Part shown: positions 16,266 through 58,386 of the stretch, piece by piece | Layout: each line of letters begins with the position of its first letter | Position numbering within the stretch: position 1 is the first letter of the stretch | Source: Candidatus Omnitrophota bacterium | GTDB lineage: Bacteria > Omnitrophota > Gorgyraeia > Gygaellales > Profunditerraquicolaceae | Direction of reading: 5' to 3' | Length of the DNA: 64,000 nt | NCBI GenBank assembly: GCA_028716245.1 | Contig: JAQUQW010000002.1 | Location: 72,947 to 136,946 of the forward strand | The notes under the pieces: model-generated | The model's database searches: none | What the model was told of the DNA's origin: nothing | Seen by the model: the letters and a program-made list of their open reading frames with translations, nothing else | Made by a program: the position numbers and the translations under genes

Positions 16266-16777
16266 TTGAGCAGGAGCTAATTTTATTAGGCCTGTTACGC
16301 CAAAGCCCCAAGCACGGTTACGAAATTAAGGTAAAAGCGCGCGAAATCCTCTCCTCTTTTGCCGGAGTCCAGTTAAAGTCAATATATTACCCCCTAAGAA
16401 TTTTAGAAAAAAAAGGCCTGCTTACCAAGTGCGCGGATAAATTAGGCAGCAGGCCAAGGCGTTTTGTCTATTGCCTTACCGAAAAGGGTAAAGAGCGCTT
16501 TGAGATATTGCTTAATAAAAACCTGCTGGATTTTACGCGCCCCCAGTTTACTCTTGACCTAAGTTTATATTTCCTCAACTTCTTGAAACCAGCTTTAGCC
16601 CGGCGCCGGCTAAAGAAGAGGCTGGAAATTTTAGGAAAGATCTCCAGCGGCATAGAAAAGATGCTAAAAACCAAAGAATTAAAAGAATCCCTGGCGATTT
16701 CCCGGATTATGGAACATAATCTCTGCCTGCTGCGTGCCGAGTCTTCCTTCCTGAGTTCACTCCTCCAAAAAATTTAA
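16262..16777 (+). CDS. PadR-family transcriptional regulator
   Basis: PadR winged-helix signature (HGYEIKVKAREIL...YPLRILEKKGLL). The stop TAA at 16775-16777 overlaps the first bases of REPIN A. Confidence 0.75.
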   Translation: MIEQELILLGLLRQSPKHGYEIKVKAREILSSFAGVQLKSIYYPLRILEKKGLLTKCADKLGSRPRRFVYCLTEKGKERFEILLNKNLLDFTRPQFTLDLSLYFLNFLKPALARRRLKKRLEILGKISSGIEKMLKTKELKESLAISRIMEHNLCLLRAESSFLSSLLQKI

Positions 16778-16840
16778 ATAGGGACAGCGACCATTTTTCT
16801 CTAAGCTAAACTTCCAAAAAATGGTCGCTGTCCCTATTTA
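16776..16840. repeat. REPIN-like element A (family 1: AAATAGGGACAGCGACCATTTTT, 17-nt spacer, reverse complement)
   Basis: The left arm overlaps the PadR stop and the right arm AAAAAATGGTCGCTGTCCCTATTTA ends at 16840. Confidence 0.85.
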
Positions 16841-17047: not shown

Positions 17048-17086
17048 ATTTCATATATAATATAGTAATTGCTATAACATACCATA

Positions 17087-18166: not shown

Positions 18167-18819
18167 TGATCGACAAGCAAACTTCTGACGAGAGGTTACT
18201 TAAACTTATTGAGGGCACCGGGGAACCTAAACACCCGGGAGCTATGTCCGTCGGGGCAAGAAGGCTGGCCGCCCATCCCCTGGCCGTTAAACTTAATTTT
18301 CTTGAACTAAAATCGAAGCTTAAAGACTTAAAGGTTAATTTACTCGTTTTAAATAAAGGCTTGATTGGTTTGGCAGTTTTCCTAACGTTTATGTTTTTGT
18401 ATATCCTTATCAGCGGTTCAATAATTTCTAAATCCAACTCTATTTCTTTTACCCCCAGGGATAGCTCGGCAATAATAAAATTAATATCCGCCGGAGAGGC
18501 TCAAGGGTTGATGCGCAAAAACATCGCCAATCAGAATATCACCAGGGATTTTTTTCTTCCCTTTGGCGAAAAACGCAGTGTTCCTGTGCAGGAGGAGGGC
18601 CCGGATATAACCGAAGAGGTCAAGGCCCTGAAACTTGTCGGCATTATCTGGTCGCGTAATCCTGAAGTGATGATTGAAAATTCCAAAGACTCTCGGACAT
18701 ATACTTTAAAAAAAGGCGAATCGCTTGGCGATAAGTTCAAGATTAAAGAGATTTCACGGACTTCGGCTATTTTGGTGGTAACCACCCCGGCCGGCTTAAA
18801 GGAATATGAGTTAAGATGA
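18166..18819 (+). CDS. single-pass membrane protein with C-terminal beta domain, GspC/PilP-like secretin partner (putative)
   Basis: One TM segment (LIGLAVFLTFMFLYILI) and a C-terminal TYTLKKGESLGDKFKIKEISRTSAILV resembling the HR domain of GspC/PilP. It lies between the GspA-like gene and the secretin. Confidence 0.4.
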   Translation: MIDKQTSDERLLKLIEGTGEPKHPGAMSVGARRLAAHPLAVKLNFLELKSKLKDLKVNLLVLNKGLIGLAVFLTFMFLYILISGSIISKSNSISFTPRDSSAIIKLISAGEAQGLMRKNIANQNITRDFFLPFGEKRSVPVQEEGPDITEEVKALKLVGIIWSRNPEVMIENSKDSRTYTLKKGESLGDKFKIKEISRTSAILVVTTPAGLKEYELR

Positions 18820-20327
18820 AGTTAGAAAAGCTTATTTTATGCGCGGTTTTTATTTTGTCCTTTGCAGGATTGGTTTTGGCCGAAGATATTATCGTTGAAG
18901 CTGCTAAAGCGTCTGAGCCGTCAGCAACATTTACCGATAAAGTTTCTTTGGATTTAAAGGGGGTTGATATTAACGAACTTTTTAAATTACTTTCCGCGAA
19001 AACCGGGATAACGATTATTCCGTCTCCGCAGGTCAGCGGGAGGATCACGGTATTTATGAATGATTTAAGCTTTTCCGATGCGCTGGATGTAATTGTTACC
19101 ATGCAGGATTTGGCTTATGAAAGAAAGGCAAATGTAGTCAAGGTAATGACTTTGGCAGAATATGAAAAGGCCTACGGAAAGAAATTCGGAGAGCGCAAGG
19201 AAACCCGCACCTTTAAGCTTGCTTATGCTAAGCCGGCAAACGTGCTCAATGTGATCAATTCCCTGAAATCCGAGCTGGGCAAGATTATTTCCGATGATTC
19301 AACCGGCACCGTCATTATTATAGATACTCCGCAATCCATGGAAGTTATGGCTAATACGATAAAAGAGCTTGACCGGCCCCTGGAGACGCTGGTCTTTGAT
19401 GTCAACTACGCGCGTTTTACCGATATAAAAAATTACCTTAATGAACTGATTACTCCGGGAGTCGGGCAGATAATCGTGGATGAAAGAAGCAGCAAGGTGG
19501 TTGTTTATGACCTGCCGCAGCGCTTAAACCGGATAAAGAAACTTATGCGGGAGTTTGACGAACAATCGCGCCAGGTGCTGATTACCGGCGAAATTATTGA
19601 AGTTACGATCGATGATAAATTCCAAAGCGGTATTGCCTGGGATAAGATTTTTAACCAAGCGGACCTGCATAACCTGGAGTTGGTGGGGAATTTTCCCATA
19701 AGCCCGGCGCTTTCCAATTATGGAAAGATCAGCTTAGGCACATTAGCCCAGGACCATTATAATATAGTAATGAATATGCTTAGTACTTACGGCTCTACGA
19801 AAGTGCTTACCCGGCCAAGGATTGTTGTGGTCAATAAGGAGGAAGCTAAAATACTTGTCGGTACGCGCGAGGCTTATGTAACCTCGACCCAAAGCCAGGG
19901 ACAATCCACGACCCTTACCGCGGAAAGCGTGCAGTTTATCGATGTTGGGTTAAAACTTGCGGTTGTGCCGACCATTGGCGCCGATGGTTTTATTACAATG
20001 AAGATAAAACCTGAAGTCAGTTCAGTGCAGAGCACATTAACCACAACTGCCGGCACGGTTGTGCCGATAGTGGAAACCTCGCAATCCGAGACAGTGGTTA
20101 AAGTAAAAGACGGCAATATGCTGATTATCGCCGGACTGCTTAGAGAAGAAAATGACAAAAGTGATTCAGGGTTGCCTGGCTTATCGCGCCTGCGCATCTT
20201 GGGCCATTTATTTTCTACGAGGGGAAGGGAAAAGAAAAGAAAAGAGTTGGTTATATTTATAACTCCTACAATAATAACCGGAACAAACAATATCAGCCGT
20301 GAGGTAAAGAGTGAAAGCAAACAATAA
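18816..20327 (+). CDS. gspD: secretin (GspD/PilQ family), paralog 1
   Basis: Signal peptide, N0/STN-like domain (LKGVDINELFKLLSAKTGITIIP), and a secretin C-domain (VLTRPRIVVVNKEEAKILVG...ITPTII). Confidence 0.85.
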   Translation: MKLEKLILCAVFILSFAGLVLAEDIIVEAAKASEPSATFTDKVSLDLKGVDINELFKLLSAKTGITIIPSPQVSGRITVFMNDLSFSDALDVIVTMQDLAYERKANVVKVMTLAEYEKAYGKKFGERKETRTFKLAYAKPANVLNVINSLKSELGKIISDDSTGTVIIIDTPQSMEVMANTIKELDRPLETLVFDVNYARFTDIKNYLNELITPGVGQIIVDERSSKVVVYDLPQRLNRIKKLMREFDEQSRQVLITGEIIEVTIDDKFQSGIAWDKIFNQADLHNLELVGNFPISPALSNYGKISLGTLAQDHYNIVMNMLSTYGSTKVLTRPRIVVVNKEEAKILVGTREAYVTSTQSQGQSTTLTAESVQFIDVGLKLAVVPTIGADGFITMKIKPEVSSVQSTLTTTAGTVVPIVETSQSETVVKVKDGNMLIIAGLLREENDKSDSGLPGLSRLRILGHLFSTRGREKKRKELVIFITPTIITGTNNISREVKSESKQ

Positions 20328-22524
20328 ACTCATAAATAGGGACAGCGACCATTTTTTCAAAAACCTTTGGATTCGTAAAAAATGGTCGCTGTCCCTATTT
20401 ATCCTGCTATCTTTAATCAGCCCGCTTGGCGCAAAAAGCGATTCCGCGCAGGAAGATCAGATAGTTGAAGAGAGTCCGAAGGATAAGATATCCTTGGACC
20501 TGAAAAATGTGGATATTGTTGAGTTATTGCGGATTGTCTCGCTTAAAACCGGAAGGACAATCGTTCCCAGCAAGGATGTTTCCGGCCGCATCACCATCTA
20601 TTTAAGCCAGGTTGCCTTTGATGACGTCCTGGATATTATCCTGCTTACTCAAGGGTTGGCCCTAAACAAAAAAGATAACGTGTATTATGTGATGAGTGAA
20701 GCCGAATACAAAAAAATGTATGGCCGGGATTATATTGACCAGAGAAAAATTGAAACAGTCAAGCTTTCCTACGCCAAGCCTTCCATAATTTTTAACGCGC
20801 TCGGCCAGCTTAAATCCGATGTCGGTAAAATCGTAGTTGATGAAGCCAGCGGCACGATAATCCTGATCGATATCCCGGAAAAGCTGGAACTGCTTCAAAA
20901 AACAATCAAAGAATTAGACCAGCCGTTGACTACCGCTATCTATGACCTTAATTACATTAAGCCTGCCGATGCCAAAACCCAGCTTAACGCCGCCATTACT
21001 CCGGGTACAGGCGAGGTAATTATCGATGAAAGAAACGGCAAGGCCATAATTTCGGACCTGCCCAGAAAAATAGATAAGTTAGGGATGCTGGTGCGTGAGA
21101 TAGACGAGGAATCCCGCCAGGTTTATATTGAAGCCGATATCGTCGAGCTTACTTTGGATAATCAATTCCAAAGGGGGATAGACTGGGAAAAGCTATGGAG
21201 TTCTGCGGCAATGAATGGATTGGATTTTTCCGGGAATTTTCCTTTAGCCGCTTTAACGGCAGTGGGGGCAATAACTCAGAAAATCTCAGTGGGTACCTTT
21301 GCCACCAATCATTACCAGGCGATCCTGAATTTTCTAAATACCTACGGAACTACGCATGTTGTTTCCCAGCCGAGGATTGCCGTAGTCAATAACGAAGAAG
21401 CCAATATTATGGTCGGTACGCGCGAGGCGTATATTACTCAGACGCAAAGCCAGGCAACCGCGACCACCGTAACTTCTGAAACCGTAGAGTTTATCGATGT
21501 TGGTGTTAAATTAAAAGTTGTACCTAAAATCAGCGCCGATGATTTTATTACGATGAAGATAAAACCTGAAGTCAGTTCTGTTACCAGGACGCTTACTACT
21601 TCTCTGGGTAGCGTTGTTCCAATAGTGCAAACTTCTCAGTCAGAAAGTGTCGTAAAAATAAAAGACGGGATGATGATTATGATCGCCGGAATGACTAAAG
21701 TTGAGAAGACCGACACAATCAACGGCTGGCCGGTATTGTCAAAAATCCCTTTCTTAGGAGTATTGTTTAGCAATCGCGTGAAGGATACCAAGAGGACCGA
21801 AGTAATTATTTTTCTTACCCCGCACCTGTCGCGCGGCGACGCGGGGTTAAGAGGGGATGAGATAACTAAAATATTGCCGATGGAGAATTTACCGGAGCGC
21901 TTGCAAAACAAGGTAGTCAGGGATAAAGCAATAGATAAGGGGCTATTTACTCCTGAAAAGATGAAGGAAGAATTGGCCAAGAAGCAGGCAATAGAGGTAG
22001 CTGCCGAAGAAACAGCCGAAAGGACCGCCGCAGACAAATTGGCAAAGGCGGCAGAAAAGGCAGAAAAGGCAGCGGTCAAACAAACAGTTGCCGCCGAAGT
22101 AAAGAAATCCAGCCCAAGAGAAGCCGCCAAAGAATATTACCAAAAAGGCCTGCGCGCGCAGGCGGATTCCGATAATGAAGAAGCAATCCGTAATTTTATA
22201 AGAGCCGCGCAGTTGGATAAAAAATACGCCGCCGCTTACAATAGTTTAGGGATTATTTATGAGCAGGAGAGTAAGCCCGAGAAATCCGAGGAGATGTATC
22301 TAAAGGCCGTTTCAGCTGACGAGCGTTATTGCCCGGCCTATTCAAATTTAGCTTTATTTAATGAAAATCGCAAAGATTTTACCAAAGCTTTAGAGTATTG
22401 GCGCAAACGCGTTTTATACGGCGATCAAAATAGCGAATGGACAAAAAAGGCTATACAGCGGATAAAAGAACTTGAGAGCAACAAAGGCGAAACTGTTTCC
22501 GATTCAATCGGGACAGGGGGGTAG
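20311..22524 (+). CDS. gspD: secretin (GspD/PilQ family), paralog 2, with C-terminal TPR extension
   Basis: N0-like domain (LKNVDIVELLRIVSLKTGRTIVP), secretin C-domain (VVSQPRIAVVNNEEANIMVG), then a Lys/Ala/Glu-rich linker and TPR repeats (AIRNFIRAAQLDKKYAAAYNSLGIIY...). Its ATG overlaps the paralog-1 stop by 17 nt. Confidence 0.85.
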   Translation: MKANNKLINRDSDHFFKNLWIRKKWSLSLFILLSLISPLGAKSDSAQEDQIVEESPKDKISLDLKNVDIVELLRIVSLKTGRTIVPSKDVSGRITIYLSQVAFDDVLDIILLTQGLALNKKDNVYYVMSEAEYKKMYGRDYIDQRKIETVKLSYAKPSIIFNALGQLKSDVGKIVVDEASGTIILIDIPEKLELLQKTIKELDQPLTTAIYDLNYIKPADAKTQLNAAITPGTGEVIIDERNGKAIISDLPRKIDKLGMLVREIDEESRQVYIEADIVELTLDNQFQRGIDWEKLWSSAAMNGLDFSGNFPLAALTAVGAITQKISVGTFATNHYQAILNFLNTYGTTHVVSQPRIAVVNNEEANIMVGTREAYITQTQSQATATTVTSETVEFIDVGVKLKVVPKISADDFITMKIKPEVSSVTRTLTTSLGSVVPIVQTSQSESVVKIKDGMMIMIAGMTKVEKTDTINGWPVLSKIPFLGVLFSNRVKDTKRTEVIIFLTPHLSRGDAGLRGDEITKILPMENLPERLQNKVVRDKAIDKGLFTPEKMKEELAKKQAIEVAAEETAERTAADKLAKAAEKAEKAAVKQTVAAEVKKSSPREAAKEYYQKGLRAQADSDNEEAIRNFIRAAQLDKKYAAAYNSLGIIYEQESKPEKSEEMYLKAVSADERYCPAYSNLALFNENRKDFTKALEYWRKRVLYGDQNSEWTKKAIQRIKELESNKGETVSDSIGTGG
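20334..20402. repeat. REPIN-like element B (family 1), 69 nt, lying in frame inside the 5' end of secretin paralog 2
   Basis: Arms are at 20334-20358 and 20378-20402. It is translated as INRDSDHFFKNLWIRKKWSLSLF within the predicted signal peptide. Confidence 0.85.
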
Positions 22525-22566
22525 GTATCATCCCCATGTCCCGAACAACTTGGAAACAGTTTCGAT
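22508..22566. repeat. GC-rich hairpin (CGGGACAGGGG...CCCCATGTCCCG) overlapping the secretin-2 stop, plus a family-2 core GGAAACAGTTTCG
   Basis: 12-bp stem with one mismatch at 22513-22548. The palindromic family-2 core is at 22551-22563. A likely terminator/REP-like site. Confidence 0.55.
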
Positions 22567-22571
22567 AAATA

Positions 22572-23924
22572 ATGAACATAAATTTTAAAGAAAAGAAATT
22601 GCTTCTGGCGTTTGCGTTTTTAATCCTGCTTACCTTTTTAATCGGCCTGTTTGGCATAGCCCAGATCCAGGGATTAAGCCGTAAGATCGAAGGTTTAGGC
22701 AGGTATAATTTAAAGCGGCAGAGCGCCGTGCTGGAGATGCGTATAAATAACGCGGTTTATGCCATGGGTATCCGCAATTATGTTTTTTGGCGCGCCTTCC
22801 GCTATTTGAACGCCATGCCGATAGCGGTAAACGTGGATAAAGTTTTTGCCGTAGGAGAAAATTTTAAAAACCAGCTTAAGATTTACCGCCAAAGCGCATA
22901 CTTAGGCCAGGAAAAAGAGTGGGCAAATCAAATTACTGTTTCATTCGATGAGGCTTTTACGCTTGGCAAAAAAATTATTCAATCAGCGGATAAAGAGGAA
23001 TCCGGAAAAATCAACGAGGCTACAAATAACCTGCTGATGAACTTTGAGAACCGTATTTATAAAATAGACGAGTTTTTGAATAATTTTATGGGTAAATCCA
23101 ATCTTGAAGATGTGCAGCGGCAGTTATTTTTGGCTAACGCGGATAAGCAGCAGGCGATTTTTTTCTTAAAAATCAGTTTAATCAGCGCGCTGATTGTGGG
23201 GATATTGATCGCGCTCTCTGTATATCGCCGAAGAATCAAGGAGCGCTCCTACCGCCAGCAAATTTTTAACCGGATGATTAATATTGAGGAGAACGAAAGG
23301 AAAAATCTTTCCGCGGCGGTGCATGATGAAATGGGCCAGGATTTAAGCGCGCTAAAAATTTACCTTGGGCTTGTTTCTCAGGAGCTGGCGGAAGCAAAAG
23401 AAGATTTGAAAGCAAAAGTCGAAGAATGCAAAAAGATAACCGCAGGACTTATTGACAAAAGCCACAACATTGCCTTTTTGCTCAGGCCTCCGGATTTGGA
23501 TGAAGTGGGATTGTTGGAAAGTTTAGAGTCGCTGCTTTTAGAATCCAGCCATCTCAGCGGCGTTGAATATATTTTTCAAAAACCCGCCGGCAGCCTTGCG
23601 TTGGCTCCGGAGTACAGCTTGTTAATTTACCGCATAGTGCAGGAACTGGTTACGAATATGATCAAGCACTCAAAAGCTAAAAATGTGGAAGTCAGTATCA
23701 ATAAAAACGCAAATTCCATAGAATTATTTTACCGCGATGACGGGCAGGGGTTTGATTACAATCAGGACGCCAGGAAATTCTTAAGGCGCAGGGAAGATAA
23801 ATTCCGGCTTGGGCTAATCGGCTTAAAAGAAAGGGTGGAGGTGCTCGACGGGTCAATGCAAATAAATTCATCTTCCGGAAAAGGGACGAGCATTACCGTA
23901 ACACTTCCGATAATATGCCCATAA
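22572..23924 (+). CDS. sensor histidine kinase (HisKA_3 / NarX-LiaS-type)
   Basis: Two TM segments, H-box AAVHDEMGQDLSALKIY (HisKA_3 type) and a HATPase_c domain (DDGQGFD...GLIGLKERVEVLDGSMQINS). Confidence 0.85.
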   Translation: MNINFKEKKLLLAFAFLILLTFLIGLFGIAQIQGLSRKIEGLGRYNLKRQSAVLEMRINNAVYAMGIRNYVFWRAFRYLNAMPIAVNVDKVFAVGENFKNQLKIYRQSAYLGQEKEWANQITVSFDEAFTLGKKIIQSADKEESGKINEATNNLLMNFENRIYKIDEFLNNFMGKSNLEDVQRQLFLANADKQQAIFFLKISLISALIVGILIALSVYRRRIKERSYRQQIFNRMINIEENERKNLSAAVHDEMGQDLSALKIYLGLVSQELAEAKEDLKAKVEECKKITAGLIDKSHNIAFLLRPPDLDEVGLLESLESLLLESSHLSGVEYIFQKPAGSLALAPEYSLLIYRIVQELVTNMIKHSKAKNVEVSINKNANSIELFYRDDGQGFDYNQDARKFLRRREDKFRLGLIGLKERVEVLDGSMQINSSSGKGTSITVTLPIICP

Positions 23925-24562
23925 AAATTGCGATCGTTGATGACCATGATATAATCCGCACCGGCGTAAAAAGCGTTTTGGAAAAACACACCCAGTATGA
24001 GGTTTGTGTTGAAGCAGCCAACGGAGAAGCGGCTTTAAAAGCCGCCGAAGACTTTAAACCGGACATTATGCTGTTGGACATTTCGATGCCCAAACTCAGC
24101 GGGCTGGATATAATCAGCCGGATAAAACGCCTCAGCCCACAGACAAAGATAATCATTATCTCGGTCTATAAATTAGGCACATATATCTTAAAGGCTTTAC
24201 GCTGCGGGGTTAACGGTTATATCAATAAAGATAATCTTGCCGAAGAGCTTATCCCGGCTTTATCGCGCATAAGTTCCGGAGGTTCTTATCTGGGTTCAGA
24301 AATCTCTGACTATTTGGCGCAGACAATGCAGGATTCCCAAAAAAAAGAAATACCAAAAGGGTTAAAGATTTTAAACGCGCGTGAACAGGATGTCCTGCGC
24401 CTGGTAGCGGAAGGTAAAACCGCCAGGGAGATCGCCGAAGTCATGTTCTTGAGCCGCCGCACAGTAGAAAATTACAAAAATAGCATACTTAAAAAGCTGA
24501 ATTTACATAAGACCAGCGACCTGATTAAATATTCATTGGAGAATAAATTTCTCGATGCTTAA
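23915..24562 (+). CDS. NarL/FixJ-family response regulator (REC + LuxR-type HTH)
   Basis: REC with VDDHD and DIMLLDISMPKLSG, and a C-terminal LuxR HTH (LNAREQDVLRLVAEGKTAREIAEVMFLSRRTVENYKNSILKKL). It overlaps the kinase gene by 10 nt. Confidence 0.88.
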   Translation: MPIKIAIVDDHDIIRTGVKSVLEKHTQYEVCVEAANGEAALKAAEDFKPDIMLLDISMPKLSGLDIISRIKRLSPQTKIIIISVYKLGTYILKALRCGVNGYINKDNLAEELIPALSRISSGGSYLGSEISDYLAQTMQDSQKKEIPKGLKILNAREQDVLRLVAEGKTAREIAEVMFLSRRTVENYKNSILKKLNLHKTSDLIKYSLENKFLDA

Positions 24563-24938
24563 GAAGGTAGATAAAATTTTGAAAATAGCACGGCAGGATG
24601 ATGAAATTCTGGCGGTATTTCTATTCGGCAGCCTAGCGCGGCGAGAAGGACATAAAACAAGTGATATAGATATTTGTTTAATATTGAAACCAGGCAGGTA
24701 TTCTTCTTTAGGCCTTTCTGAGAAAAGGTTTGAATATCTTAAGGTATTCGATTTAGATGTGCAGATTTTTCAACAGCTGCCTCTTTATATTAAAATGAGG
24801 GTGATAAAGGATGGGAAAAAACTTTTTTGCGCGAATGAAGATGAGTTATATCAAAGTGTTTTTAACACGATTACGGAATTTGAAGATTATAGAGATATTT
24901 ACCGTGATTATTTAATGGAGGTAGGAAATGTTAGATAA
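24555..24938 (+). CDS. MNT-type nucleotidyltransferase (antitoxin of a HepT/MNT pair)
   Basis: Pol-beta-type NTase motif GSLARREGHKTSDIDI, 127 aa. Confidence 0.8.
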   Translation: MLKKVDKILKIARQDDEILAVFLFGSLARREGHKTSDIDICLILKPGRYSSLGLSEKRFEYLKVFDLDVQIFQQLPLYIKMRVIKDGKKLFCANEDELYQSVFNTITEFEDYRDIYRDYLMEVGNVR

Positions 24939-25359: not shown

Positions 25360-25423
25360 GGGGATATCATGTTTAAGATTAAAAATGTCCAATTTGAAAT
25401 GTCCAATGTGAATAAAATAGGGA

Positions 25424-25479
25424 CAGCGACCGTTTTTTGGTCGTTTTGCTTAGAGAAAAATGGTCGCTGTCCCTATTTA
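25424..25479. repeat. REPIN-like element C (family 1, CCG variant of the arm)
   Basis: AAAATAGGGACAGCGACCGTTTTTT, a 13-nt spacer, then AAAAATGGTCGCTGTCCCTATTTA. Confidence 0.85.
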
Positions 25480-25586
25480 AAAAAGAGTATAATGCGCAAT
25501 GAAAACGAGTAGTTTACCCATTGAAAGAATATATGATAAATAGTATATTATCTGTAGATGAAAGAAGGGCAGCAGAAGAGGATGAA

Positions 25587-26927
25587 ATGAATAAATATAC
25601 TGTTGGCATAATTCTGGGTATTTTAGGCGCGGGGTTAAATTGCCAGGCGCAGGCGAATCAGGTCTTAGAGCAGGCGCCTTTTGTCCTGGAAGATAATTTA
25701 GCCGGCCCGGCCACGGTAGAACCAGAGCCGATCTTTGCCACAGGAATAATCAAAACTATCTGTGTATCTTATGAGTTTACCGGCCAGGTGAGTTTAGAAG
25801 CCAGCACCAATGGAGGCGTTGATTACACAAAAATAATCAATGGCTCACCGCTTGTTGATGGATTTATTCCGGGAAACCAGCTGCGCTTTAGGGCAAATAT
25901 CGGACCGGCAAGCAGTTTAAAAAAATTAACCATTGGTTACACTGATTCATCAGGAGTATCCAGATTATACCGCAACCCCGATTTAGCAAATTATAAAAAT
26001 CACCGTGAAATTTATATTTCCGGAGGCAGCCAGGAAGTATTTAATTATCCCCTGGAAATAAAATTGGATCCTTTAGCAGCCGGCACTGAAATTTATTTTA
26101 CCGCGGCTGACGGTCAAACTCCGCTTTATTATTATTTAGAAGATCCCGCGCGCTGCTACGTGAAGGTTCTCCAGATCCCCAAAGAAGGCACAAAAATTTA
26201 TGTTTACTGGAAAAATAGGGACAGCGACCGTTTTTCTCCAAGTGAAACAACCAAAAAACGGTCGCTGTCCCTATTTTTAGACGGCAATAAAGTTTTTCCG
26301 TTTTTTGAGGATTTTAACGATGCCTCTTTAAACGCGGAAAAATGGGAAATAATTCCCGGGCTAAAAAAAGAATACAGCATTAAAGATGGATATTTACGGA
26401 TTAAAGATTGTTTAGTGGTAACGCGAAATTTTAAAACCCAACAGGGCATCCTGGAGTTCAAAGCCAAGGCGGAAGAGAACGCGGGGATCCAGGTAGTTGT
26501 GCGCACAAAAGTTTCCGCGGGGTTATCTCCTTACGAACAAATAGTTTACTCTTCGAATTATCCGGGAGCAGAACATACTATCGCGATCAATAACATTGCC
26601 AAGGTGAATATAAGTAATCCGATAAAACCGCTTACCTATTATATCTATCAAGCAACCATCAATTCCACCGGCATTCTTTTTGAAAGATACAGTGAAGACC
26701 GGAAGGAAAAACAGGCCGAGATAAAATTTTTGGATGTGGGGAATTTTAGTGAAGGTTATATTGGTTTAAAAGCGGATGCCGCGCCGTTTAATGCCGGCAG
26801 TGTTTATTTCGATTGGATCAGGGTCAGGCCGTATGTGGAAGTTGAACCAAAGGCGGTGATAAATAGGGACAGCGACCGTTTTTCTCTTCTAGGCGACCAT
26901 GAACCTGTTGCTGAGGTGATGAGATGA
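25587..26927 (+). CDS. secreted DUF2341-like + LamG/concanavalin-like domain protein, carrying an in-frame REPIN insertion
   Basis: Signal peptide MNKYTVGIILGILGAGLNCQAQA preceded by an AGAGGA RBS (the ORF track start at 25521 is probably too far upstream). PLEIKLDP...YYYLED...YVYW resembles DUF2341. NDASLNAEKWEII...GYLRI resembles LamG-like. The ORF is uninterrupted through REPIN D. Confidence 0.6.
   Translation: MNKYTVGIILGILGAGLNCQAQANQVLEQAPFVLEDNLAGPATVEPEPIFATGIIKTICVSYEFTGQVSLEASTNGGVDYTKIINGSPLVDGFIPGNQLRFRANIGPASSLKKLTIGYTDSSGVSRLYRNPDLANYKNHREIYISGGSQEVFNYPLEIKLDPLAAGTEIYFTAADGQTPLYYYLEDPARCYVKVLQIPKEGTKIYVYWKNRDSDRFSPSETTKKRSLSLFLDGNKVFPFFEDFNDASLNAEKWEIIPGLKKEYSIKDGYLRIKDCLVVTRNFKTQQGILEFKAKAEENAGIQVVVRTKVSAGLSPYEQIVYSSNYPGAEHTIAINNIAKVNISNPIKPLTYYIYQATINSTGILFERYSEDRKEKQAEIKFLDVGNFSEGYIGLKADAAPFNAGSVYFDWIRVRPYVEVEPKAVINRDSDRFSLLGDHEPVAEVMR
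26214..26277. repeat. REPIN-like element D (family 1, CCG variant) embedded in frame in a coding sequence
   Basis: Translated without a stop as NRDSDRFSPSETTKKRSLSLF between the DUF2341-like and LamG-like parts of the host ORF. Confidence 0.85.
26860..26886. repeat. solo family-1 REP arm (left arm only) forming the 3' end of the DUF2341/LamG ORF
   Basis: AAATAGGGACAGCGACCGTTTTTCTC with no intact right arm. It is translated as INRDSDRFSL at the C-terminus. Confidence 0.75.
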
Positions 26928-26932
26928 AAGCG

Positions 26933-43422: not shown

Positions 43423-43435
43423 ATATCATGAGAAT

Positions 43436-43551
43436 AAATAGGGACAGCGACCATTTTTCCCATTCTTTCCGTCATTCCCGCGTAAGTGGGAATCTGATCC
43501 CCGCTTTTGCGGATATGACAATTTTGAAAAAATGGTCGCTGTCCCTATTTA
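43436..43551. repeat. REPIN-like element F (family 1) with an extended 65-nt spacer containing two additional small hairpins
   Basis: Left arm at 43436-43460 and right arm at 43526-43550. The spacer has ATTCCCGCGTAAGTGGGAAT and CCGCTTTTGCGG hairpins. The right arm encodes residues KKWSLSLFI of the downstream signal peptide. Confidence 0.8.
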
Positions 43552-44297
43552 TTTTGTTTTTTATCCCAGCCTGTGCCTGGGCTGAAGTGAGCACTTCGCT
43601 TTGGCAGACCAAAAAATCCCAGCATTTTATTATTTATTATCAGGAAAGCGCCGATGATTTTGTCAATGAGCTGGATGTTTCAGCGGAAAATTATTATAAC
43701 AGCATCGTCGAAGAATTAGGTTTCCGCCGGATGGATTTCTGGAGCTGGGATGACCGGGCAAAGATATATTTATTCAATAACAGCGCCGATTATTTAAATG
43801 AGACCGGCGGCTTGGCCTGGAGCGGGGCGCAGGTTTCGGTAAAGCTACGCACGATCAAGACCTTTATCGGCCAGGAGACTTTTTTCGATTCTATACTTCC
43901 GCATGAGCTGACGCATATAATCTTCCGGGAATTTATCGGTACCAAAACAGAGCTGCCGCTTTGGCTGGATGAAGGTATCGCCTGTTCTCAGGAAAAAAGC
44001 AGCCTGATTTCGCGGATGGATTCAGCCAGGGCGCTGGTTAAGCAGGATACATATTTAAAATTTGATAAACTCTTCCAGATATATAACTCCACGCTTATCG
44101 TGCCGAATGTATTTTATTCCGAGTCCGCATCGATTATCGTTTTTTTGCTAAAAAAATATGACCGGGAATTATTTTTGGATTTCAGCCGGAAGCTTCGCGA
44201 CGGCATGCAGTGGAAAAACGCCCTTTTAAACACGTATCATTTTTCAAATTTTGAAGAAATGGAATCTGCCTGGAAGGATTTTATGTTGAATAAATAG
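43515..44297 (+). CDS. secreted putative zinc metallopeptidase (HExxH ... E)
   Basis: Signal peptide MTILKKWSLSLFILFFIPACAWA. HELTH plus a downstream LDEGIA is consistent with a gluzincin-like fold, but family assignment is uncertain. The stop TAG at 44295-44297 lies inside the REP arm. The ORF track start at 43428 would include the whole of REPIN F. Confidence 0.5.
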   Translation: MTILKKWSLSLFILFFIPACAWAEVSTSLWQTKKSQHFIIYYQESADDFVNELDVSAENYYNSIVEELGFRRMDFWSWDDRAKIYLFNNSADYLNETGGLAWSGAQVSVKLRTIKTFIGQETFFDSILPHELTHIIFREFIGTKTELPLWLDEGIACSQEKSSLISRMDSARALVKQDTYLKFDKLFQIYNSTLIVPNVFYSESASIIVFLLKKYDRELFLDFSRKLRDGMQWKNALLNTYHFSNFEEMESAWKDFMLNK

Positions 44298-44315
44298 GGA
44301 CAGCGACCATTTTTC
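44292..44315. repeat. family-1 REP arm (left) upstream of the RAYT gene
   Basis: AAATAGGGACAGCGACCATTTTTCC. It has no local partner; its inverted partner lies 3' of the transposase gene. Confidence 0.85.
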
Positions 44316-44412: not shown

Positions 44413-45084
44413 ATGCCTAGAATTGCCAGAGTTGTAGCGATAGGTCAACCTCACCACATTACACAAAGAGGTAACTATCGGCAAGACGTATTCCTTAACG
44501 CGGATAACCGAAAACAATACCTTGCCTGGATTAATGAATATAGCGTAAAATACGGGGTTCTCGTTTTGGCCCATTGCCTGATGGCAAATCATGTTCACTT
44601 TATCGCTATTCCTAATGAAAGCGATTCGCTGGCTAAAACATTCAATACCGCTCATATGCGTTATTCCCAGTATTTTAATAAAAAGTTGAAGCAGAGCGGG
44701 CATCTTTGGCAGGGACGTTTTTATTCTTGTGTGTTGGATCAATCTCATCTTATACTTGCCGCTCGTTATATTGAAAGGAATCCTGTGCGCGCAGGACGCG
44801 TAGAGAAACCTTGGCAGTGGCCATGGTCAAGCGCCGCCGCCCATACGAATAGGAAGGATAATAAATCGATTGAGTTTGGGGATCTTCTCGGGATTATCGG
44901 CATGTCAAGCACCGCGTGGGAAAAATACATTGATTCCGCGGAAGAGGACAATTTTTTACAGGATATAAGAAAGCATACGTATGCCGGTCGTCCCCTCGGG
45001 GCGCCGGAATTTACTATAGGTTTAGAGGAAAAATGTGGTAGAAGGTTATGCGCGTTACCGATAGGGAGGCCAAGAAAAAGCTAG
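44413..45084 (+). CDS. REP-associated tyrosine transposase (RAYT; IS200-like Y1 HUH transposase), copy 1
   Basis: 223 aa with HUH motif (ANHVHFIAI) and a conserved C-terminal Tyr-helix region (YIERNPVRAGRV). Inverted family-1 REP arms lie 97 nt upstream and directly after the stop. Confidence 0.85.
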   Translation: MPRIARVVAIGQPHHITQRGNYRQDVFLNADNRKQYLAWINEYSVKYGVLVLAHCLMANHVHFIAIPNESDSLAKTFNTAHMRYSQYFNKKLKQSGHLWQGRFYSCVLDQSHLILAARYIERNPVRAGRVEKPWQWPWSSAAAHTNRKDNKSIEFGDLLGIIGMSSTAWEKYIDSAEEDNFLQDIRKHTYAGRPLGAPEFTIGLEEKCGRRLCALPIGRPRKS

Positions 45085-45108
45085 AAAAATGGTCGCTGTC
45101 CCTATTTA
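45085..45108. repeat. family-1 REP arm (right) directly after the RAYT stop codon
   Basis: AAAAATGGTCGCTGTCCCTATTTA, the reverse complement of the arm at 44292-44315. Confidence 0.85.
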
Positions 45109-45123
45109 TTAAAGGAGGATTAG

Positions 45124-46233: not shown

Positions 46234-46235
46234 AT

Positions 46236-46299
46236 AAATAGGGACAGCGACCATTTTTTCTTGGTCGTTTAGATAAAAAATGGTCGCTGTCCCTATTTA
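46236..46299. repeat. REPIN-like element H (family 1) between epsilon and c subunit genes
   Basis: Arms are at 46236-46260 and 46275-46299. The spacer contains the inner mini-hairpin CGACCA...TGGTCG. Confidence 0.85.
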
Positions 46300-47250: not shown

Positions 47251-48708
47251 ATGAAGATTGAAGCCTTAGACATAAAAGAAATCGGAAGGATCGAAGAGCT
47301 TAAGCAGGGGATTGTGAAAATCAGCGGTTTGCCTAATTGCGCCTATGGGGCTGTAATCGAATTCGATAATGGATTAAAAGGAATGATCGTTGAATTTGAC
47401 GCGCAATTTGCCTTTGGGATTGTTTTTGGGGATGAACGCAGGATTAAGGTCGGCGATACGGTTTCCACCCGCGGCCAGCTGCTTAATGTTCCGGTAGGGG
47501 ATAATTTTATCGGCAGAGTGGTTGATCCTTTGGGTAACCCGATAGACGCAAAAGGTAAAATTGAGCCGGCAGCGGTAAATCCGGTCTTCCATCAGGCATC
47601 CGGGGTTATGGAGCGCGAGCCAATAAGCCATCCTTTGCATACTGGGATAAAAATTATCGATATGCTTATCCCGCTGGGCAAAGGCCAGCGGGAATTGATC
47701 GTCGGAGACCGGCAGATCGGCAAAACCAGCATCAGTTTGGATATGATCATCAATCAAAAAGGCAAAAATGTTATCTGCATTTACTGTTGGATCGGAGGAA
47801 GCAGCGCGGCTTTTAATAAGATTATCCAGGTGCTTAACCAACAGGGTTGTATGGACTTTTGCCTTGCTGTCTGCGCCTCGGCAAGCGCCTCGGCAAGCGA
47901 ACAATATATTTGTCCTTATACCGCCGCGGCATTAGGTGAATATTTTATGTATAATGGTAAGGATGTCCTGGTAATTTTTGACGATTTGACTAAGCACAGC
48001 TGGGTTTACCGGCAGATGTCTTTGCTGCTTGAGCGGGCCCCGGGAAGGGAAGCGTATCCGGGAGATATCTTTTTCTTACATTCACAGCTTATGGAGCGCG
48101 CCGGCCGCCTGAAGAAAGAATTCGGAGGCGGGACAATGACATTCTTGCCGTTAGCCGAAACACTGCAAGGTGATATTACCGGTTATATCTGCTCGAATAT
48201 CGTTTCGATGACCGACGGGCAGATTTATTTAAACTCCGGGCTTTTTCAGGAAGGTTTCAAACCGGCGATCGATTTGGAACTTTCAGTTTCGCGTATCGGA
48301 AGCAAGGTGCAATGCCCGGCCATCCGTAAATTAAGTGAAGGCCTGCGTTATGAATACGTGCAATACCGTTCTTTACTGCGTTTGACCCGCCTGCGCACCA
48401 AACTTAGCCCGGAGAGCGCCCAGCAACTGCAGCGGGGCCGGGCCCTTTATGAGCTTTTGATTCAGGAAAACGGTTCTCCTTTATCTCAGGCAGAGGAGAT
48501 CGCTGTTTTTTTTGCCTTTCGCCAGAAGATACTTGAGTCAATCAGTATCGAGCAGGTAAAATTGTTTAAAAATAATTTCTTTGCCTATTTAGGCAAGCAT
48601 CAGCAGAATTTAGTGGGGCAACTGGATAGCAAAGGTGAGCTTACGGAAGAAATTAAACTGCTTTTGGATAAAACGATAAAAGATTTTTTCCGCAGCCAGG
48701 ATAAATAG
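47251..48708 (+). CDS. atpA: F-type ATPase alpha subunit (divergent)
   Basis: Walker A GDRQIGKTS and alpha-like N-terminal beta-barrel and C-terminal helical domains. It contains a 12-nt exact tandem duplication (47875-47898) encoding ASASASAS. The stop TAG overlaps the REPIN I arm. Confidence 0.8.
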   Translation: MKIEALDIKEIGRIEELKQGIVKISGLPNCAYGAVIEFDNGLKGMIVEFDAQFAFGIVFGDERRIKVGDTVSTRGQLLNVPVGDNFIGRVVDPLGNPIDAKGKIEPAAVNPVFHQASGVMEREPISHPLHTGIKIIDMLIPLGKGQRELIVGDRQIGKTSISLDMIINQKGKNVICIYCWIGGSSAAFNKIIQVLNQQGCMDFCLAVCASASASASEQYICPYTAAALGEYFMYNGKDVLVIFDDLTKHSWVYRQMSLLLERAPGREAYPGDIFFLHSQLMERAGRLKKEFGGGTMTFLPLAETLQGDITGYICSNIVSMTDGQIYLNSGLFQEGFKPAIDLELSVSRIGSKVQCPAIRKLSEGLRYEYVQYRSLLRLTRLRTKLSPESAQQLQRGRALYELLIQENGSPLSQAEEIAVFFAFRQKILESISIEQVKLFKNNFFAYLGKHQQNLVGQLDSKGELTEEIKLLLDKTIKDFFRSQDK

Positions 48709-48768
48709 GGACAGCGACCATTTTTTTGGCCGCTACACTTAGAGAAAAATGGTCGCTGTCCCTATTTT
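48703..48768. repeat. REPIN-like element I (family 1) between alpha and gamma subunit genes
   Basis: Arms are at 48703-48727 and 48745-48768. The first arm contains the atpA stop codon. Confidence 0.85.
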
Positions 48769-52644: not shown

Positions 52645-53883
52645 ATGATATTTTTATATAAGGCTAAGAAAAACCTTAAGGAGGTTGTCGAGGGCAAAAT
52701 CGACGGGGGCAGTGTCGAGCAGGTGCTTGAAGATCTGCAGGCAAAAGGGCTTGTGCCGATTTCCGTCGAGCCGTTAATCGGCCCGCCTGTTTCCGCAGCG
52801 GCATCCGCAAAAACTTCCCCCAAACCCGAAACAGTTTCCAACCCAATCGGGAAATGGGGTTTAAAAAACCTAGTTTTGTTCACCCAGAAACTTTACAATC
52901 TGGTTAATTCCCGCGTAGAGTTACTTAGCGCCTTAAGGCTTTTAGAAAAGGACTGCCAAAATCAGACCGAAAAATTATTACTTTCCGATATCATAAAGAA
53001 TATTAAAGACGGTGTTTCATTTTCCAATTGCCTTAGCCGCTACCCGCAGTATTTCCCGCAATTTTACGTCAATATTGTCCACACCGGCGAGGCAACCGGC
53101 AAGCTCAAAGATTCCCTGATCCAACTTTTGGACTATCTGCGCCGGTTTGAAGATTTAAGGACCAAGGTAAAACAGGCGCTTGCTTATCCAATATTTATGA
53201 CTTTGGTTGGCGTAGGCACGATATTTGTAATGCTTACTTTTGTCCTGCCGAGGCTGGCCGGGATGTTTGAAGATTTTCAGGCGCAGCTGCCCTTACCCAC
53301 ACTTATTTTACTCAATATCGCGAATTTCCTTAAAGCTTATTGGGTATTTGTAATCGGATTTATTGTTATTCTTGTCTTTGCGTTTAAGGTCAACGGCGCA
53401 GGCAAGGAAAGTGTTTTTAGCCGCCTGAAATATCATATTCCCATTGCCAAAGATATTGTTTATAAACAGTCGGTGGCCAACTTTTCCAGAAGTTTATCCC
53501 TGCTTTTGCAAAGCGGAGTGAACCTGCTTTCCGCCTTGGCCGACGCCGGTCCGATAATCGGCAATCCGGTTTATGTCAGCCAACTTGAACAGGTGCGCCG
53601 TGATATCAGCCAAGGCATGCCTTTTTCAGACTCCTTGGCCAAATTCAAAATCTTCCCGGATTTTTTTGTGCAGATGATCCGCGTCGGCGAAGAAGGCGGC
53701 AGGCTGGACAGCGTACTGGCGGATATCGCCGAGTCTTATGAAAAAGAGATTGAGGCAGATTTAAAGGTCGTCAGTTCCCTTATTGAACCGGCGATAATTT
53801 TGGTCCTGGGCCTGGTGATCGGGGCGATGGTTATTGCCATGCTCCTGCCGATATTTAATATGAACAGCCTTGTCGGTGGCTAA
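52645..53883 (+). CDS. gspF: platform protein GspF/PilC
   Basis: 412 aa. The N-terminal FLYKAKKNLKEVVEGKIDGGSVEQVLEDLQAKGLVPISVEP is the typical GspF/PilC start, followed by two T2SSF domains with three TM segments. It carries a family-2 repeat in frame at 52825-52859. Confidence 0.85.
   Translation: MIFLYKAKKNLKEVVEGKIDGGSVEQVLEDLQAKGLVPISVEPLIGPPVSAAASAKTSPKPETVSNPIGKWGLKNLVLFTQKLYNLVNSRVELLSALRLLEKDCQNQTEKLLLSDIIKNIKDGVSFSNCLSRYPQYFPQFYVNIVHTGEATGKLKDSLIQLLDYLRRFEDLRTKVKQALAYPIFMTLVGVGTIFVMLTFVLPRLAGMFEDFQAQLPLPTLILLNIANFLKAYWVFVIGFIVILVFAFKVNGAGKESVFSRLKYHIPIAKDIVYKQSVANFSRSLSLLLQSGVNLLSALADAGPIIGNPVYVSQLEQVRRDISQGMPFSDSLAKFKIFPDFFVQMIRVGEEGGRLDSVLADIAESYEKEIEADLKVVSSLIEPAIILVLGLVIGAMVIAMLLPIFNMNSLVGG
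52825..52859. repeat. family-2 repeat unit (CGAAACAGTTTCC + CCCAATCGGG + GGAAATGGGG modules) embedded in frame in gspF
   Basis: Translated as PKPETVSNPIGKWG in the linker after the N-terminal cytoplasmic domain. The ORF stays open. Confidence 0.75.
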
Positions 53884-53884
53884 T

Positions 53885-53950
53885 AAATAGGGACAGCGAC
53901 CATTTTTTGTTCGCTATCCCTATTAAAAAAATGGTCGCTGTCCCTATTTA
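53885..53950. repeat. REPIN-like element J (family 1) directly after the gspF stop
   Basis: Arms are at 53885-53908 and 53925-53950. The spacer contains a partial extra arm copy (TCGCTATCCCTATT). Confidence 0.85.
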
Positions 53951-53961
53951 TTAAGATAATT

Positions 53962-58306: not shown

Positions 58307-58371
58307 TAAATAGGGACAGCGACCATTTTTTCTTGGTCGCGTAGATGAAAAAATGGTCGCTGTCCCTATTT
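58307..58371. repeat. REPIN-like element K (family 1)
   Basis: Arms are at 58307-58331 and 58347-58371, with the inner mini-hairpin CGACCA...TGGTCGC in the spacer. Confidence 0.85.
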
Positions 58372-58386
58372 AAATGAGGTTAAGTT

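What the first reader, a model, noticed from the sequence alone, without database searches (positions are those of the whole stretch)
20334..20402. REPIN inserted in frame (69 nt, 23 codons) inside the signal-peptide coding region of the second secretin gene
The secretin-2 ORF starts at an ATG overlapping the secretin-1 stop. It reads MKANNKL-[INRDSDHFFKNLWIRKKWSLSLF]-ILLSLISPLGAKSD. Removing the 69-nt element leaves a textbook signal peptide, MKANNKLILLSLISPLGA. The insertion length is a multiple of three and contains no stop. The right arm (KKWSLSLF) simply extends the hydrophobic core. A mobile inverted repeat is therefore tolerated inside a secretion signal.
Basis: seen in the sequence. 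Interest (0 to 1): 0.7.

Follow-up and report, generated by a model that had tools for sequence, protein, structure and literature searches.

The report
Hairpin repeat inside secretin signal peptide
A 71-base mobile hairpin repeat sits in frame in the first 30 codons of an outer-membrane secretin gene of an uncultured Omnitrophota bacterium and now encodes part of its export signal; in-frame repeats like this are known in other bacteria, but here related species carry repeats at this same spot again and again.

Summary
A perfect inverted repeat (26-nt arms 20332-20357 and 20377-20402, 19-nt loop) lies in codons 8-31 of the second secretin ORF. It is in frame and has no stop. It belongs to a REP/REPIN-like family with 21 arm matches in the window (0.07 expected). 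Two inverted arms also flank a RAYT-like Y1 transposase gene at 44413-45084.

- The start codon is GTG 20311, not ATG. It is the only canonical in-frame start upstream of the mature domain.
- Removing the block leaves a 12-residue uncharged core. That is shorter than in all 33 orthologues annotated without a full insert (minimum 14). The right arm (KKWSLSLF) therefore supplies part of the signal peptide rather than just extending it.

Across Omnitrophota, secretin-2 starts inside the end of secretin-1, so the usual landing zone for such repeats, just past a stop codon, falls inside the signal peptide. Twelve of 23 species loci carry a palindromic insert there, from at least four families. Eleven keep the frame. 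This argues that translation reads through the insert.

The window's copy is the reverse complement of the copy in three relatives. It is conserved far above synonymous sites, which is unexplained.

This is a new member of a known kind (in-frame REP/RPE/MITE insertions). Interest is moderate.

The parts
20332..20402 (.). REPIN-like hairpin: left arm 20332-20357, loop 20358-20376, right arm 20377-20402. It is read in frame as INRDSDHF-FKNLWIR-KKWSLSLF.
   Evidence: I3: 26-nt arms, 100% complementary; codons; fold -52.4 kcal/mol, z -7.1.
20311..20433 (+). Inferred signal-peptide coding region of secretin-2, 41 codons: n-region MKANNKLINRDSDHFFKNLWIRKK, hydrophobic core WSLSLFILLSLISPL, and GA before KSD.
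   Evidence: The cleavage site is inferred from the conserved ...[S/N]PLGA motif of orthologues. No signal-peptide predictor was run.
20311..22524 (+). Secretin-2 ORF, 737 aa, with Secretin_N, Secretin and C-terminal TPR domains. Start GTG 20311.
   Evidence: It is identical to NCBI protein P0001 from a Candidatus Omnitrophica MAG.
18816..20327 (+). Secretin-1 ORF, 503 aa. Its stop (TAA 20325-20327) lies 5 nt before the hairpin and inside secretin-2 codons 5-6.
20301..20305 (+). Shine-Dalgarno-like GAGGT, 5 nt upstream of GTG 20311. It also encodes part of the secretin-1 C-terminus.
   Evidence: Read from the sequence. The same motif is present in L064, L065 and L066.
44413..45084 (+). RAYT-like Y1 transposase gene, 223 aa, with an HVH (HUH) motif and a Tyr in ARYIERNP.
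   Evidence: PF01797, E 4e-14; NCBIfam REP_Tyr_transpos 70.7 bits against a cut-off of 80, versus IS200 19.9 bits.
44290..44314 (+). REP arm flanking the transposase gene on the left.
45084..45109 (-). REP arm flanking the transposase gene on the right, in inverted orientation.
16775..16840 (.). Family copy. Its TAA is the stop of ORF 16262-16777. The copy is absent from the orthologous site in L065.
25415..25478 (.). Family copy, intergenic.
26211..26278 (.). Family copy in frame inside the DUF2341-like ORF 25521-26927 (KNRDSDRFSPSETTKKRSLSLF).
26859..26884 (+). Solo REP arm that forms the C-terminal extension of the same ORF.
43433..43553 (.). Family copy with a nested second repeat, read through at the N-terminus of the Peptidase_MA_2 ORF (...KKWSLSLFILFFIPACAWA).
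46235..46299 (.). Family copy, intergenic.
48703..48767 (.). Family copy. Its TAG is the stop of ORF 47251-48708.
53881..53953 (.). Family copy. Its TAA is the stop of ORF 52645-53883.
58307..58372 (.). Family copy, intergenic.

Best explanation
The 71-nt hairpin is a copy of a REP/REPIN-like non-autonomous element. Its family is most likely mobilised by the RAYT-like Y1 transposase encoded at 44413-45084.

Elements of this kind settle just downstream of stop codons. In this clade of Omnitrophota, secretin-2 starts 11-14 nt before the secretin-1 stop. The normal landing zone therefore falls in codons 6-8 of secretin-2, between the MKxNN start and the hydrophobic core of its Sec signal peptide.

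The left arm carries TAA and TAG in two of its three frames. Only copies that fall in the third frame, have a length divisible by three and contain no stop can leave secretin-2 exportable, and those are the ones seen.

Translation starts at GTG 20311, coupled to secretin-1, and reads through the hairpin. The product has a long but workable signal peptide. The left arm and loop form an extended n-region. The right arm supplies the two lysines and the first six residues (WSLSLF) of the hydrophobic core. About six original core codons have since been lost, so the element is now a working part of the signal.

Shown: the sequence, the family, the transposase, the frame statistics, and presence or absence in orthologues. 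Inferred: mobilisation by this transposase, translation through the hairpin, export and cleavage.
For: Family and transposase:
- 21 arm matches against 0.07 expected: 9 full hairpins, 1 solo arm, and 1 pair flanking a Y1 transposase.
- The transposase matches PF01797 (E 4e-14). Its best NCBIfam match is REP-associated tyrosine transposase.
- The copy at 16775 is absent from the orthologous site in L065.

Landing zone after stop codons:
- In 121 distinct family copies from metagenomes, 66 abut the 3' end of an ORF of at least 100 aa. In 22 of them the element's own TAA or TAG is the stop.
- The same holds for three copies in the window.
- REPs lying less than 20 bp from the 3' ends of ORFs are described in PMC3733652.

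Overlap of the two secretin genes: the secretin-2 start lies 11-14 nt before the secretin-1 stop in most orthologous loci.

Frame:
- GTG 20311 is the only canonical in-frame start, and it has a GAGGT 5 nt upstream.
- 12 of 23 GTDB species loci carry a full palindromic insert here, from at least four families. Eleven keep the frame from the overlapping start, including L001 and L025, where gene callers chose a downstream start.
- Grouping likely shared events gives 9 in frame and 1 broken. The probability is 3.6e-4 if one third were in frame by chance (my calculation).

Role in the signal peptide:
- The uncharged stretch is 17 aa with the element and 12 aa without it. Orthologues annotated without a full insert have a median of 22 and a minimum of 14.
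- The Peptidase_MA_2 gene and its orthologues reuse the right arm as KKWSLSLF followed by a hydrophobic core. So do several metagenome ORFs (L085, L125, L163).

Precedent: in-frame REP and RPE insertions, and a Yersinia MITE that forms part of a signal peptide (PMC3733652, PMC2229807).
Against: - There is no expression, proteomic or signal-peptide-predictor evidence.
- A perfect 26-bp stem starting 22 nt after the start codon could hinder translation.
- Several orthologues have an alternative in-frame start in or just after the element: TTG before KKW in L066, L016 and L009; ATG in the loop of L012; ATG right after the element in L014 and L025. In those species the element could be an untranslated leader.
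- The transposase scores below the NCBIfam equivalog cut-off (70.7 against 80) and has no PDB sequence match.
- The arms are not themselves small palindromes, and they carry ATAG rather than the GTAG or CGTC tag of classical REPs.
- Conservation of the element far above synonymous sites is not predicted by simple tolerance.
Confidence: 0.75

Rival explanations
1. The hairpin has been domesticated as a cis-acting nucleic-acid element at the secretin-1/secretin-2 junction, on top of being coding sequence. It could set the ratio of the two secretins by stalling ribosomes that terminate secretin-1, by modulating coupled initiation of secretin-2, or by protecting the upstream mRNA. It could also act at the DNA level.
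For: - The 71-nt element is 65-67/71 identical (after reverse-complementing) between the window and L065, L066 and L016.
- By contrast, third codon positions of the flanking gene are only 42-49% identical to L066 and L016.
- The flip changes the encoded peptide, so the constraint is not on the protein.
- The loop CGAATCCAAAGG is found in no other REPIN in 1.24 Mb of fetched loci, which argues for one old insertion.
- Six arm pairs show changes on both sides and 94% of cells are paired; 1 of 500 shuffles reached this.
- The stem begins 5 nt after the secretin-1 stop. From my own knowledge, Liang, Rudd and Deutscher (2015) reported that E. coli REPs within about 15 nt of a stop codon reduce translation of the upstream gene.
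Against: - Arm conservation and covariation are expected for any copy of a palindromic mobile family, or from gene conversion with other copies.
- The closest relative (L064) lacks the element. Other relatives carry unrelated repeats at the site, so no single structure is required.
- A similar loop occurs in a peptidase-gene copy in another genome (L125), so the loop type may be a rare mobile subfamily.
- An RNA-level role is hard to square with an inverted loop.
Confidence: 0.22
2. The element is effectively an untranslated spacer. Secretin-2 is translated from a start inside or after the hairpin, and the open frame back to GTG 20311 is incidental.
For: - Some orthologues have such starts, and gene callers sometimes used them (P0036 MKKWALSLF, P0052 MKWSICLF, P0004 MTVFVLF).
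- PMC3733652 cautions that many REPs at the N-termini of ORFs may lie outside the gene.
- An ATT codon (20371-20373) precedes RKKWSLSLF.
Against: - In the window and in L065 there is no in-frame ATG, GTG or TTG between the upstream GTG and the mature domain.
- No Shine-Dalgarno-like motif precedes the ATT.
- The frame from the overlapping start is kept in 11 of 12 insert-bearing species loci. That would not be expected if the stretch were untranslated.
Confidence: 0.08
3. The insertion has disabled secretin-2 (so it is a pseudogene or no longer exported), or it is an assembly artefact.
For: A long n-region and a strong hairpin could reduce expression. The sequence comes from a metagenome-assembled genome.
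Against: - The 737-aa ORF is intact, with all domains.
- It is 83-86% identical to orthologues, and third positions diverge faster than the gene as a whole.
- The same arrangement is present in independent assemblies and samples.
Confidence: 0.03

Closest known systems
REPIN/RAYT systems (REP doublets mobilised by REP-associated tyrosine transposases; Pseudomonas fluorescens, E. coli REP/BIME with TnpA-REP)
   Same: - A short repeat occurs as inverted pairs that form a long hairpin, with many dispersed copies.
- A Y1 HUH transposase gene is flanked by two inverted repeat units.
- Copies sit mostly just after the 3' ends of genes.
   Different: - The arms carry ATAG rather than a GTAG or CGTC tag and are not themselves small palindromes.
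- The transposase scores below the NCBIfam equivalog cut-off.
- The host is Omnitrophota.
- In the metagenome sample, 8 of 121 copies lie inside ORFs and 14 more at ORF N-termini. Classical REPINs are described as extragenic.
Rickettsia palindromic elements (RPE) and intragenic REPs (Ogata et al. 2000, as cited in PMC3733652 and PMC2229807)
   Same: Palindromic mobile repeats are inserted in frame in genes that stay functional. They add 20-30 residues and are sometimes at the N-terminus.
   Different: - RPEs are 105-146 bp and have no known cognate transposase.
- Here the insert lies in a cleavable export signal rather than on the surface of the mature protein.
- The same codon position is occupied by several unrelated repeat families across a phylum.
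Yersinia 168-bp palindromic MITE (YPAL/RU-2) fused to YPO1552 (Delihas 2007, summarised in PMC2229807)
   Same: A mobile palindromic element fused in frame so that part of a predicted signal peptide is encoded by the element.
   Different: - The Yersinia case is proposed to create a new small exported protein.
- Here the element is inserted into, and partly replaces, the existing signal peptide of a conserved secretin.
- The same happens independently in a peptidase gene.
Extended signal peptides with long n-regions (for example the ESPR of autotransporters; from my own knowledge)
   Same: A long, charged N-terminal extension precedes an otherwise normal n-h-c signal peptide.
   Different: The ESPR is a conserved protein motif. 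Here the extension is a by-product of a DNA repeat and differs between relatives.

Membership tests
REPIN (REP doublet forming a hairpin) | Two copies of a short repeat in inverted orientation, separated by a short spacer, able to form a long hairpin. | tested here: met
   26-nt arms, 100% complementary, 19-nt loop. Fold -52.4 kcal/mol, z -7.1.
REPIN (REP doublet forming a hairpin) | Many dispersed copies in the same genome. | tested here: met
   21 arm matches in 64 kb against 0.07 expected, including 9 full hairpins. The whole genome was not available.
REPIN (REP doublet forming a hairpin) | A cognate RAYT gene flanked by the same REP units. | tested here: met
   Y1 transposase ORF 44413-45084, flanked by inverted arms at 44290-44314 and 45084-45109.
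REPIN (REP doublet forming a hairpin) | Each REP unit is itself an imperfect palindrome with a conserved GTAG or CGTC tag at one end (PMC3733652). | tested here: not met
   The arm reads ATAAATAGGGACAGCGACCATTTTTT. It has ATAG rather than GTAG and no internal palindrome (read).
REPIN (REP doublet forming a hairpin) | Evidence of mobility: presence or absence at orthologous sites. | tested here: met
   The copy at 16775-16840 is absent in L065. The secretin-site copy is absent in L064. The DUF2341 copy is absent in L066.
RAYT (REP-associated tyrosine transposase) | Y1 HUH transposase fold with an HUH motif and a catalytic Tyr. | tested here: met
   PF01797, E 4e-14. HVH and ARYIERNP are present.
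RAYT (REP-associated tyrosine transposase) | Scores as a RAYT rather than an IS200 transposase. | tested here: inconclusive
   NCBIfam REP_Tyr_transpos 70.7 bits (cut-off 80), against transpos_IS200 19.9 bits. No PDB sequence match.
RAYT (REP-associated tyrosine transposase) | Single copy per genome. | not testable with these tools
   Only 64 kb of the genome is available.
In-frame intragenic palindromic repeat (RPE / intragenic REP type) | Insert length is a multiple of three, with no stop, and the host ORF is otherwise intact. | tested here: met
The 737-aa ORF has all its domains.
In-frame intragenic palindromic repeat (RPE / intragenic REP type) | Orthologues without the insert exist. | tested here: met
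   P0002/L064 and many others.
In-frame intragenic palindromic repeat (RPE / intragenic REP type) | The insert-encoded residues are actually translated. | not testable with these tools
   Only indirect support: the frame is kept in 11 of 12 insert-bearing species loci.
Sec-type cleavable signal peptide | Positively charged n-region, a hydrophobic core of about 7-15 residues, and small residues at -1 and -3. | tested here: inconclusive
   By inspection: the n-region ends in RKK, the core is WSLSLFILLSLISPL, and GA precedes K. No SignalP-type predictor was available.
Secretin (GspD/PilQ/MshL superfamily) | Secretin C-domain plus Secretin_N / N0 domains. | tested here: met
   PF00263 E 4e-43, PF03958 E 5e-21. 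All NCBIfam equivalog scores are below their cut-offs, so the subtype is undetermined.

The most novel reading that the evidence does not exclude
The junction hairpin is not just tolerated. It is an old, domesticated REPIN kept under selection on the nucleic acid itself (arms and loop), while also encoding part of the signal peptide.

It may tune the stoichiometry of the two tandem secretins. Its loop can also invert between the perfect arms. In the orientation seen in L066 and L016, the loop creates an in-frame TTG start directly before KKW-LSLF. In the window's orientation it does not.

More broadly, the arms of this REPIN family may act as ready-made modules for the n-region and hydrophobic core. 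These modules repeatedly seed or rebuild signal peptides and membrane anchors in Omnitrophota.
Probability: 0.2. Interest if true: 0.7.

Novelty: new member of a known kind. Interest (0 to 1): 0.45.

Why it matters
- It documents a REPIN/RAYT-like system in Omnitrophota, an uncultured phylum.
- It gives a clear structural reason why a repeat that normally lies between genes ends up in coding sequence. A stop/start overlap places the post-stop landing zone inside the next gene's signal peptide.
- The repeated, frame-preserving occupation of one codon position by unrelated repeat families is a natural experiment on how much a signal peptide's n-region can absorb. It also shows repeat DNA being turned into functional signal sequence.
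- It has a practical side. N-termini such as INRDSDHF..KKWSLSLF, VIASERSERSNP..LAMT or NRNGPF in Omnitrophota and CPR proteomes derive from repeats. They can mislead start-site calling, signal-peptide prediction and protein clustering.

Tried and rejected
- Rfam: a scan of the whole window found no family at gathering score, so the hairpin is not a described RNA family.
- Terminator scan: the consensus scan of 16000-27500 did not flag any REPIN, because their loops exceed its limit, and it found no more sites than shuffles. I therefore do not claim a terminator role.
- PDB: a sequence search with the transposase found nothing.
- Protein database: searches with the repeat-encoded peptide failed. 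One query was too short and one returned no candidates. The frequency of repeat-derived peptides in proteins was estimated from DNA loci instead.
- Independent insertions of a common loop subfamily: I considered that the shared loop in the window, L065, L066 and L016 reflects this. I think it less likely, because the loop is absent from the other REPIN copies in 1.24 Mb of fetched loci. It is not excluded, because a related loop occurs in L125.
- Lipoprotein signal: rejected. There is no lipobox Cys in the window protein.
- In-frame ATG in the right arm: rejected. AAAATGG is in another frame and runs into a stop.
Full report
**What is at the coordinates.** The window comes from a Candidatus Omnitrophota metagenome-assembled genome. 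The secretin-2 protein is 100% identical to NCBI protein P0001, from a 487,646-bp contig.

At 20332-20402 there is a perfect palindrome: 26-nt arms at 20332-20357 and 20377-20402, with a 19-nt loop. It lies inside ORF 20311-22524 (737 aa), which carries Secretin_N, Secretin and C-terminal TPR domains. The ORF reads through it as MKANNKL-INRDSDHFFKNLWIRKKWSLSLF-ILLSLISPLGAKSD.

- The start codon is GTG 20311, not ATG.
- It lies 14 nt before the secretin-1 stop (TAA 20325-20327), so the two ORFs overlap by 17 nt.

An in-frame TAA sits two codons upstream of the GTG. No other in-frame ATG, GTG or TTG precedes the mature domain. GAGGT lies 5 nt upstream of the GTG. As RNA, the region folds at -52.4 kcal/mol, z = -7.1 against shuffles.

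**It is a copy of a repeat family with its own transposase.** The arm core has 21 matches in the window against 0.07 expected. These comprise:
- nine full hairpins
- one solo arm
- one pair of inverted arms (44290-44314 and 45084-45109) flanking a 223-aa ORF

That ORF is a Y1 (IS200-like) transposase (PF01797, E 4e-14). Its best NCBIfam match is REP-associated tyrosine transposase: 70.7 bits against a cut-off of 80, compared with 19.9 bits for IS200. It has an HVH motif and the Tyr of ARYIERNP. This is the gene-plus-flanking-REP layout of RAYT systems.

The arms differ from classical REPs: the tag is ATAG rather than GTAG, and the arms have no internal palindrome. I therefore call the family REPIN-like.

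Presence or absence at orthologous sites supports mobility or turnover:
- The copy at 16775 is missing in L065.
- The copy inside the DUF2341-like gene is missing in L066.
- The secretin copy is missing in L064.

Rfam has no match.

**Why it sits in a signal peptide.** I recovered 63 loci from GTDB species genomes using conserved internal secretin motifs, so the sample does not depend on gene calls. In nearly all close orthologues, the secretin-2 start (MKxNN) lies 11-14 nt before the secretin-1 stop.

The left arm of this family carries TAA and TAG in two of its three frames. Copies typically sit at or just after a stop codon:
- In the window, three upstream ORFs end in the element's own TAA or TAG.
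- In an independent sample of 121 distinct copies from metagenomes, 66 abut the 3' end of an ORF of at least 100 aa. In 22 of them the element's stop is used.
- REPs lying close to the 3' ends of ORFs are a described property (PMC3733652).

Because of the stop/start overlap, that landing zone is codons 6-8 of secretin-2.

**Orthologues: a recurrent, frame-preserving hot spot.** Of 23 species loci with the junction available:
- 12 carry a full palindromic insert at exactly this place
- 3 carry a solo-arm remnant
- the rest go straight from MKxNN into the hydrophobic core

The inserts come from at least four unrelated families:
- GGGACAGCGACC: L012, L014, L015, L016, L025 among the 23 species loci, and also the window, L065 and L066
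- GGGACCGTTTCTATTTTT-like: L004, L021
- GTCATTGCGAGC-like, giving VIASERSERSNP..LAMT: L001-L003
- others: L007, L009

Protein N-termini of 69 orthologues show the same picture.

In 11 of the 12 loci, the frame from the overlapping start stays open through the insert. This includes L001 and L025, where gene callers had picked a downstream start. Only L009 is broken, and it has acquired a new start inside the inserted DNA.

Collapsing likely shared events gives 9 in frame against 1 broken. If one insertion in three were in frame by chance, 9 or more of 10 has probability 3.6e-4 (my calculation). This is the main argument that translation starts at the overlapping start and runs through the repeats. 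It is indirect. In several species an alternative start exists in or just after the element: TTG before KKW in L066, L016 and L009, and ATG in L012, L014 and L025. In the window and in L065 no such start exists.

**The element is now part of the signal peptide.** With the element, the uncharged stretch before the charged mature N-terminus is WSLSLFILLSLISPLGA (17 aa). Without the 69 nt it is LILLSLISPLGA (12 aa). In 33 orthologues annotated without a full insert, the median is 22 and the minimum 14.

Insert-free orthologues typically have 12 residues between MKxNN and the conserved [S/N]P. In the window, WSLSLF from the right arm plus the remaining ILLSLI also make 12 (read).

The right arm therefore supplies the lysines and about half of the hydrophobic core, and about six original codons have been lost. 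'Removal leaves a textbook signal peptide' is an overstatement. I could not run a signal-peptide predictor.

**The same reuse occurs elsewhere.**
- In the window, the Peptidase_MA_2 ORF (43428-44297) begins MRINRDSDHF...ADMTILKKWSLSLFILFFIPACAWA-EVS, running through REPIN 43433-43553. Its orthologues show the same range of repeat-derived N-termini as the secretin.
- A DUF2341-like ORF carries an internal in-frame copy (26211-26278). A solo arm forms its C-terminus.
- Among the 121 metagenome copies, 8 are internal and in frame in long ORFs. Another 14 lie at the N-terminus of ORFs of at least 100 aa. Several of these are followed by signal-peptide-like or prepilin-like segments.

**An unexplained feature.** The window's element is the reverse complement of the element at the same site in L065, L066/L067/L179 and L016. 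After flipping, 67, 66 and 65 of 71 nt are identical, against 55-57 unflipped.

The loop CGAATCCAAAGG occurs in no other REPIN in 1.24 Mb of fetched loci containing more than 140 copies. A single old insertion with a later inversion or re-insertion is therefore the simplest reading.

The flanking gene is only 73-74% identical to L066 and L016, with 42-49% identity at third positions. The flip also changes the encoded peptide. The conservation therefore looks like a constraint on the nucleic acid, or repeated conversion.

L066 has a compensatory arm change and L065 the one-sided intermediate. On six aligned site copies, 94% of cells pair and six pairs change on both sides; 1 of 500 shuffles reached this. 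Such covariation is expected for any palindromic mobile family, so it does not prove selection at this locus.

I rate a regulatory or domesticated role at about 0.2. The closest relative (L064) lacks the element, and other relatives carry unrelated repeats there.

**Comparison with what is known.**
- In-frame palindromic repeats in functional genes are known from Rickettsia (RPE) and for REPs in several phyla. Those studies warn that copies at N-termini may lie outside the gene (PMC3733652).
- A Yersinia MITE has been proposed to form part of a signal peptide (PMC2229807).
- REPIN/RAYT systems are well described.

This case is a new member of that kind. Its distinctive points are the host phylum, the mechanistic reason for the location (the stop/start overlap), the repeated occupation of one codon position by unrelated families with the frame preserved, and the partial replacement of the hydrophobic core.

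**Verdict.** My confidence in the main explanation is 0.75. Novelty: new member of a known kind. Interest: 0.45.

Noticed in passing
window 44290-45109: A RAYT-like Y1 transposase gene (44413-45084, 223 aa) is flanked by two inverted arms of the same repeat family. It is probably the mobilising enzyme of the family.
   Followed up: partly
window 26211-26278 and 26859-26884 (ORF 25521-26927): A REPIN lies in frame in the middle of a DUF2341-like protein (KNRDSDRFSPSETTKKRSLSLF). The copy is decayed in L065 and absent in L066. A solo arm replaces the C-terminus of the same protein.
   Followed up: partly
window 43428-43640: The N-terminus of the Peptidase_MA_2 ORF runs through REPIN 43433-43553, which itself carries a nested second repeat (gtcattcccgcg...). 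The right arm again gives KKWSLSLF followed by ILFFIPACAWA. Orthologues show many different repeat-derived N-termini.
   Followed up: partly
window 22488-22564: A palindrome of a third family (GGAAACAGTTTCG, 9 hits in the window) overlaps the secretin-2 stop. Its left arm encodes the last 11 residues (ETVSDSIGTGG), an extension that is absent from the orthologue consensus.
   Followed up: no
window 4092-4158, 16898-16950, 42611-42677: A second hairpin family (GGGACCGTTTCTATTTTT) is present. Its right arm read in frame gives NRNGPF or KNRTVPF. That peptide appears as a remnant in the signal peptides of many secretin-2 and peptidase orthologues, including L064, the closest relative.
   Followed up: partly
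window 26980-42603: A giant ORF of 5,207 aa. The homologous gene in L065 carries Laminin_G_3 and DUF2341 domains.
   Followed up: no
L147 640-704 and L181 348-: Metagenome copies of the REPIN lie in frame immediately upstream of prepilin-like leaders (KGFTFVELFIV, RGFTLVETIII). The family also abuts type IV pilin or pseudopilin genes.
   Followed up: no
L009 2267-2600: This is the one orthologous locus where several stacked repeats broke the frame from the overlapping start. A new in-frame start inside the inserted DNA precedes KKWALSLF.
   Followed up: partly
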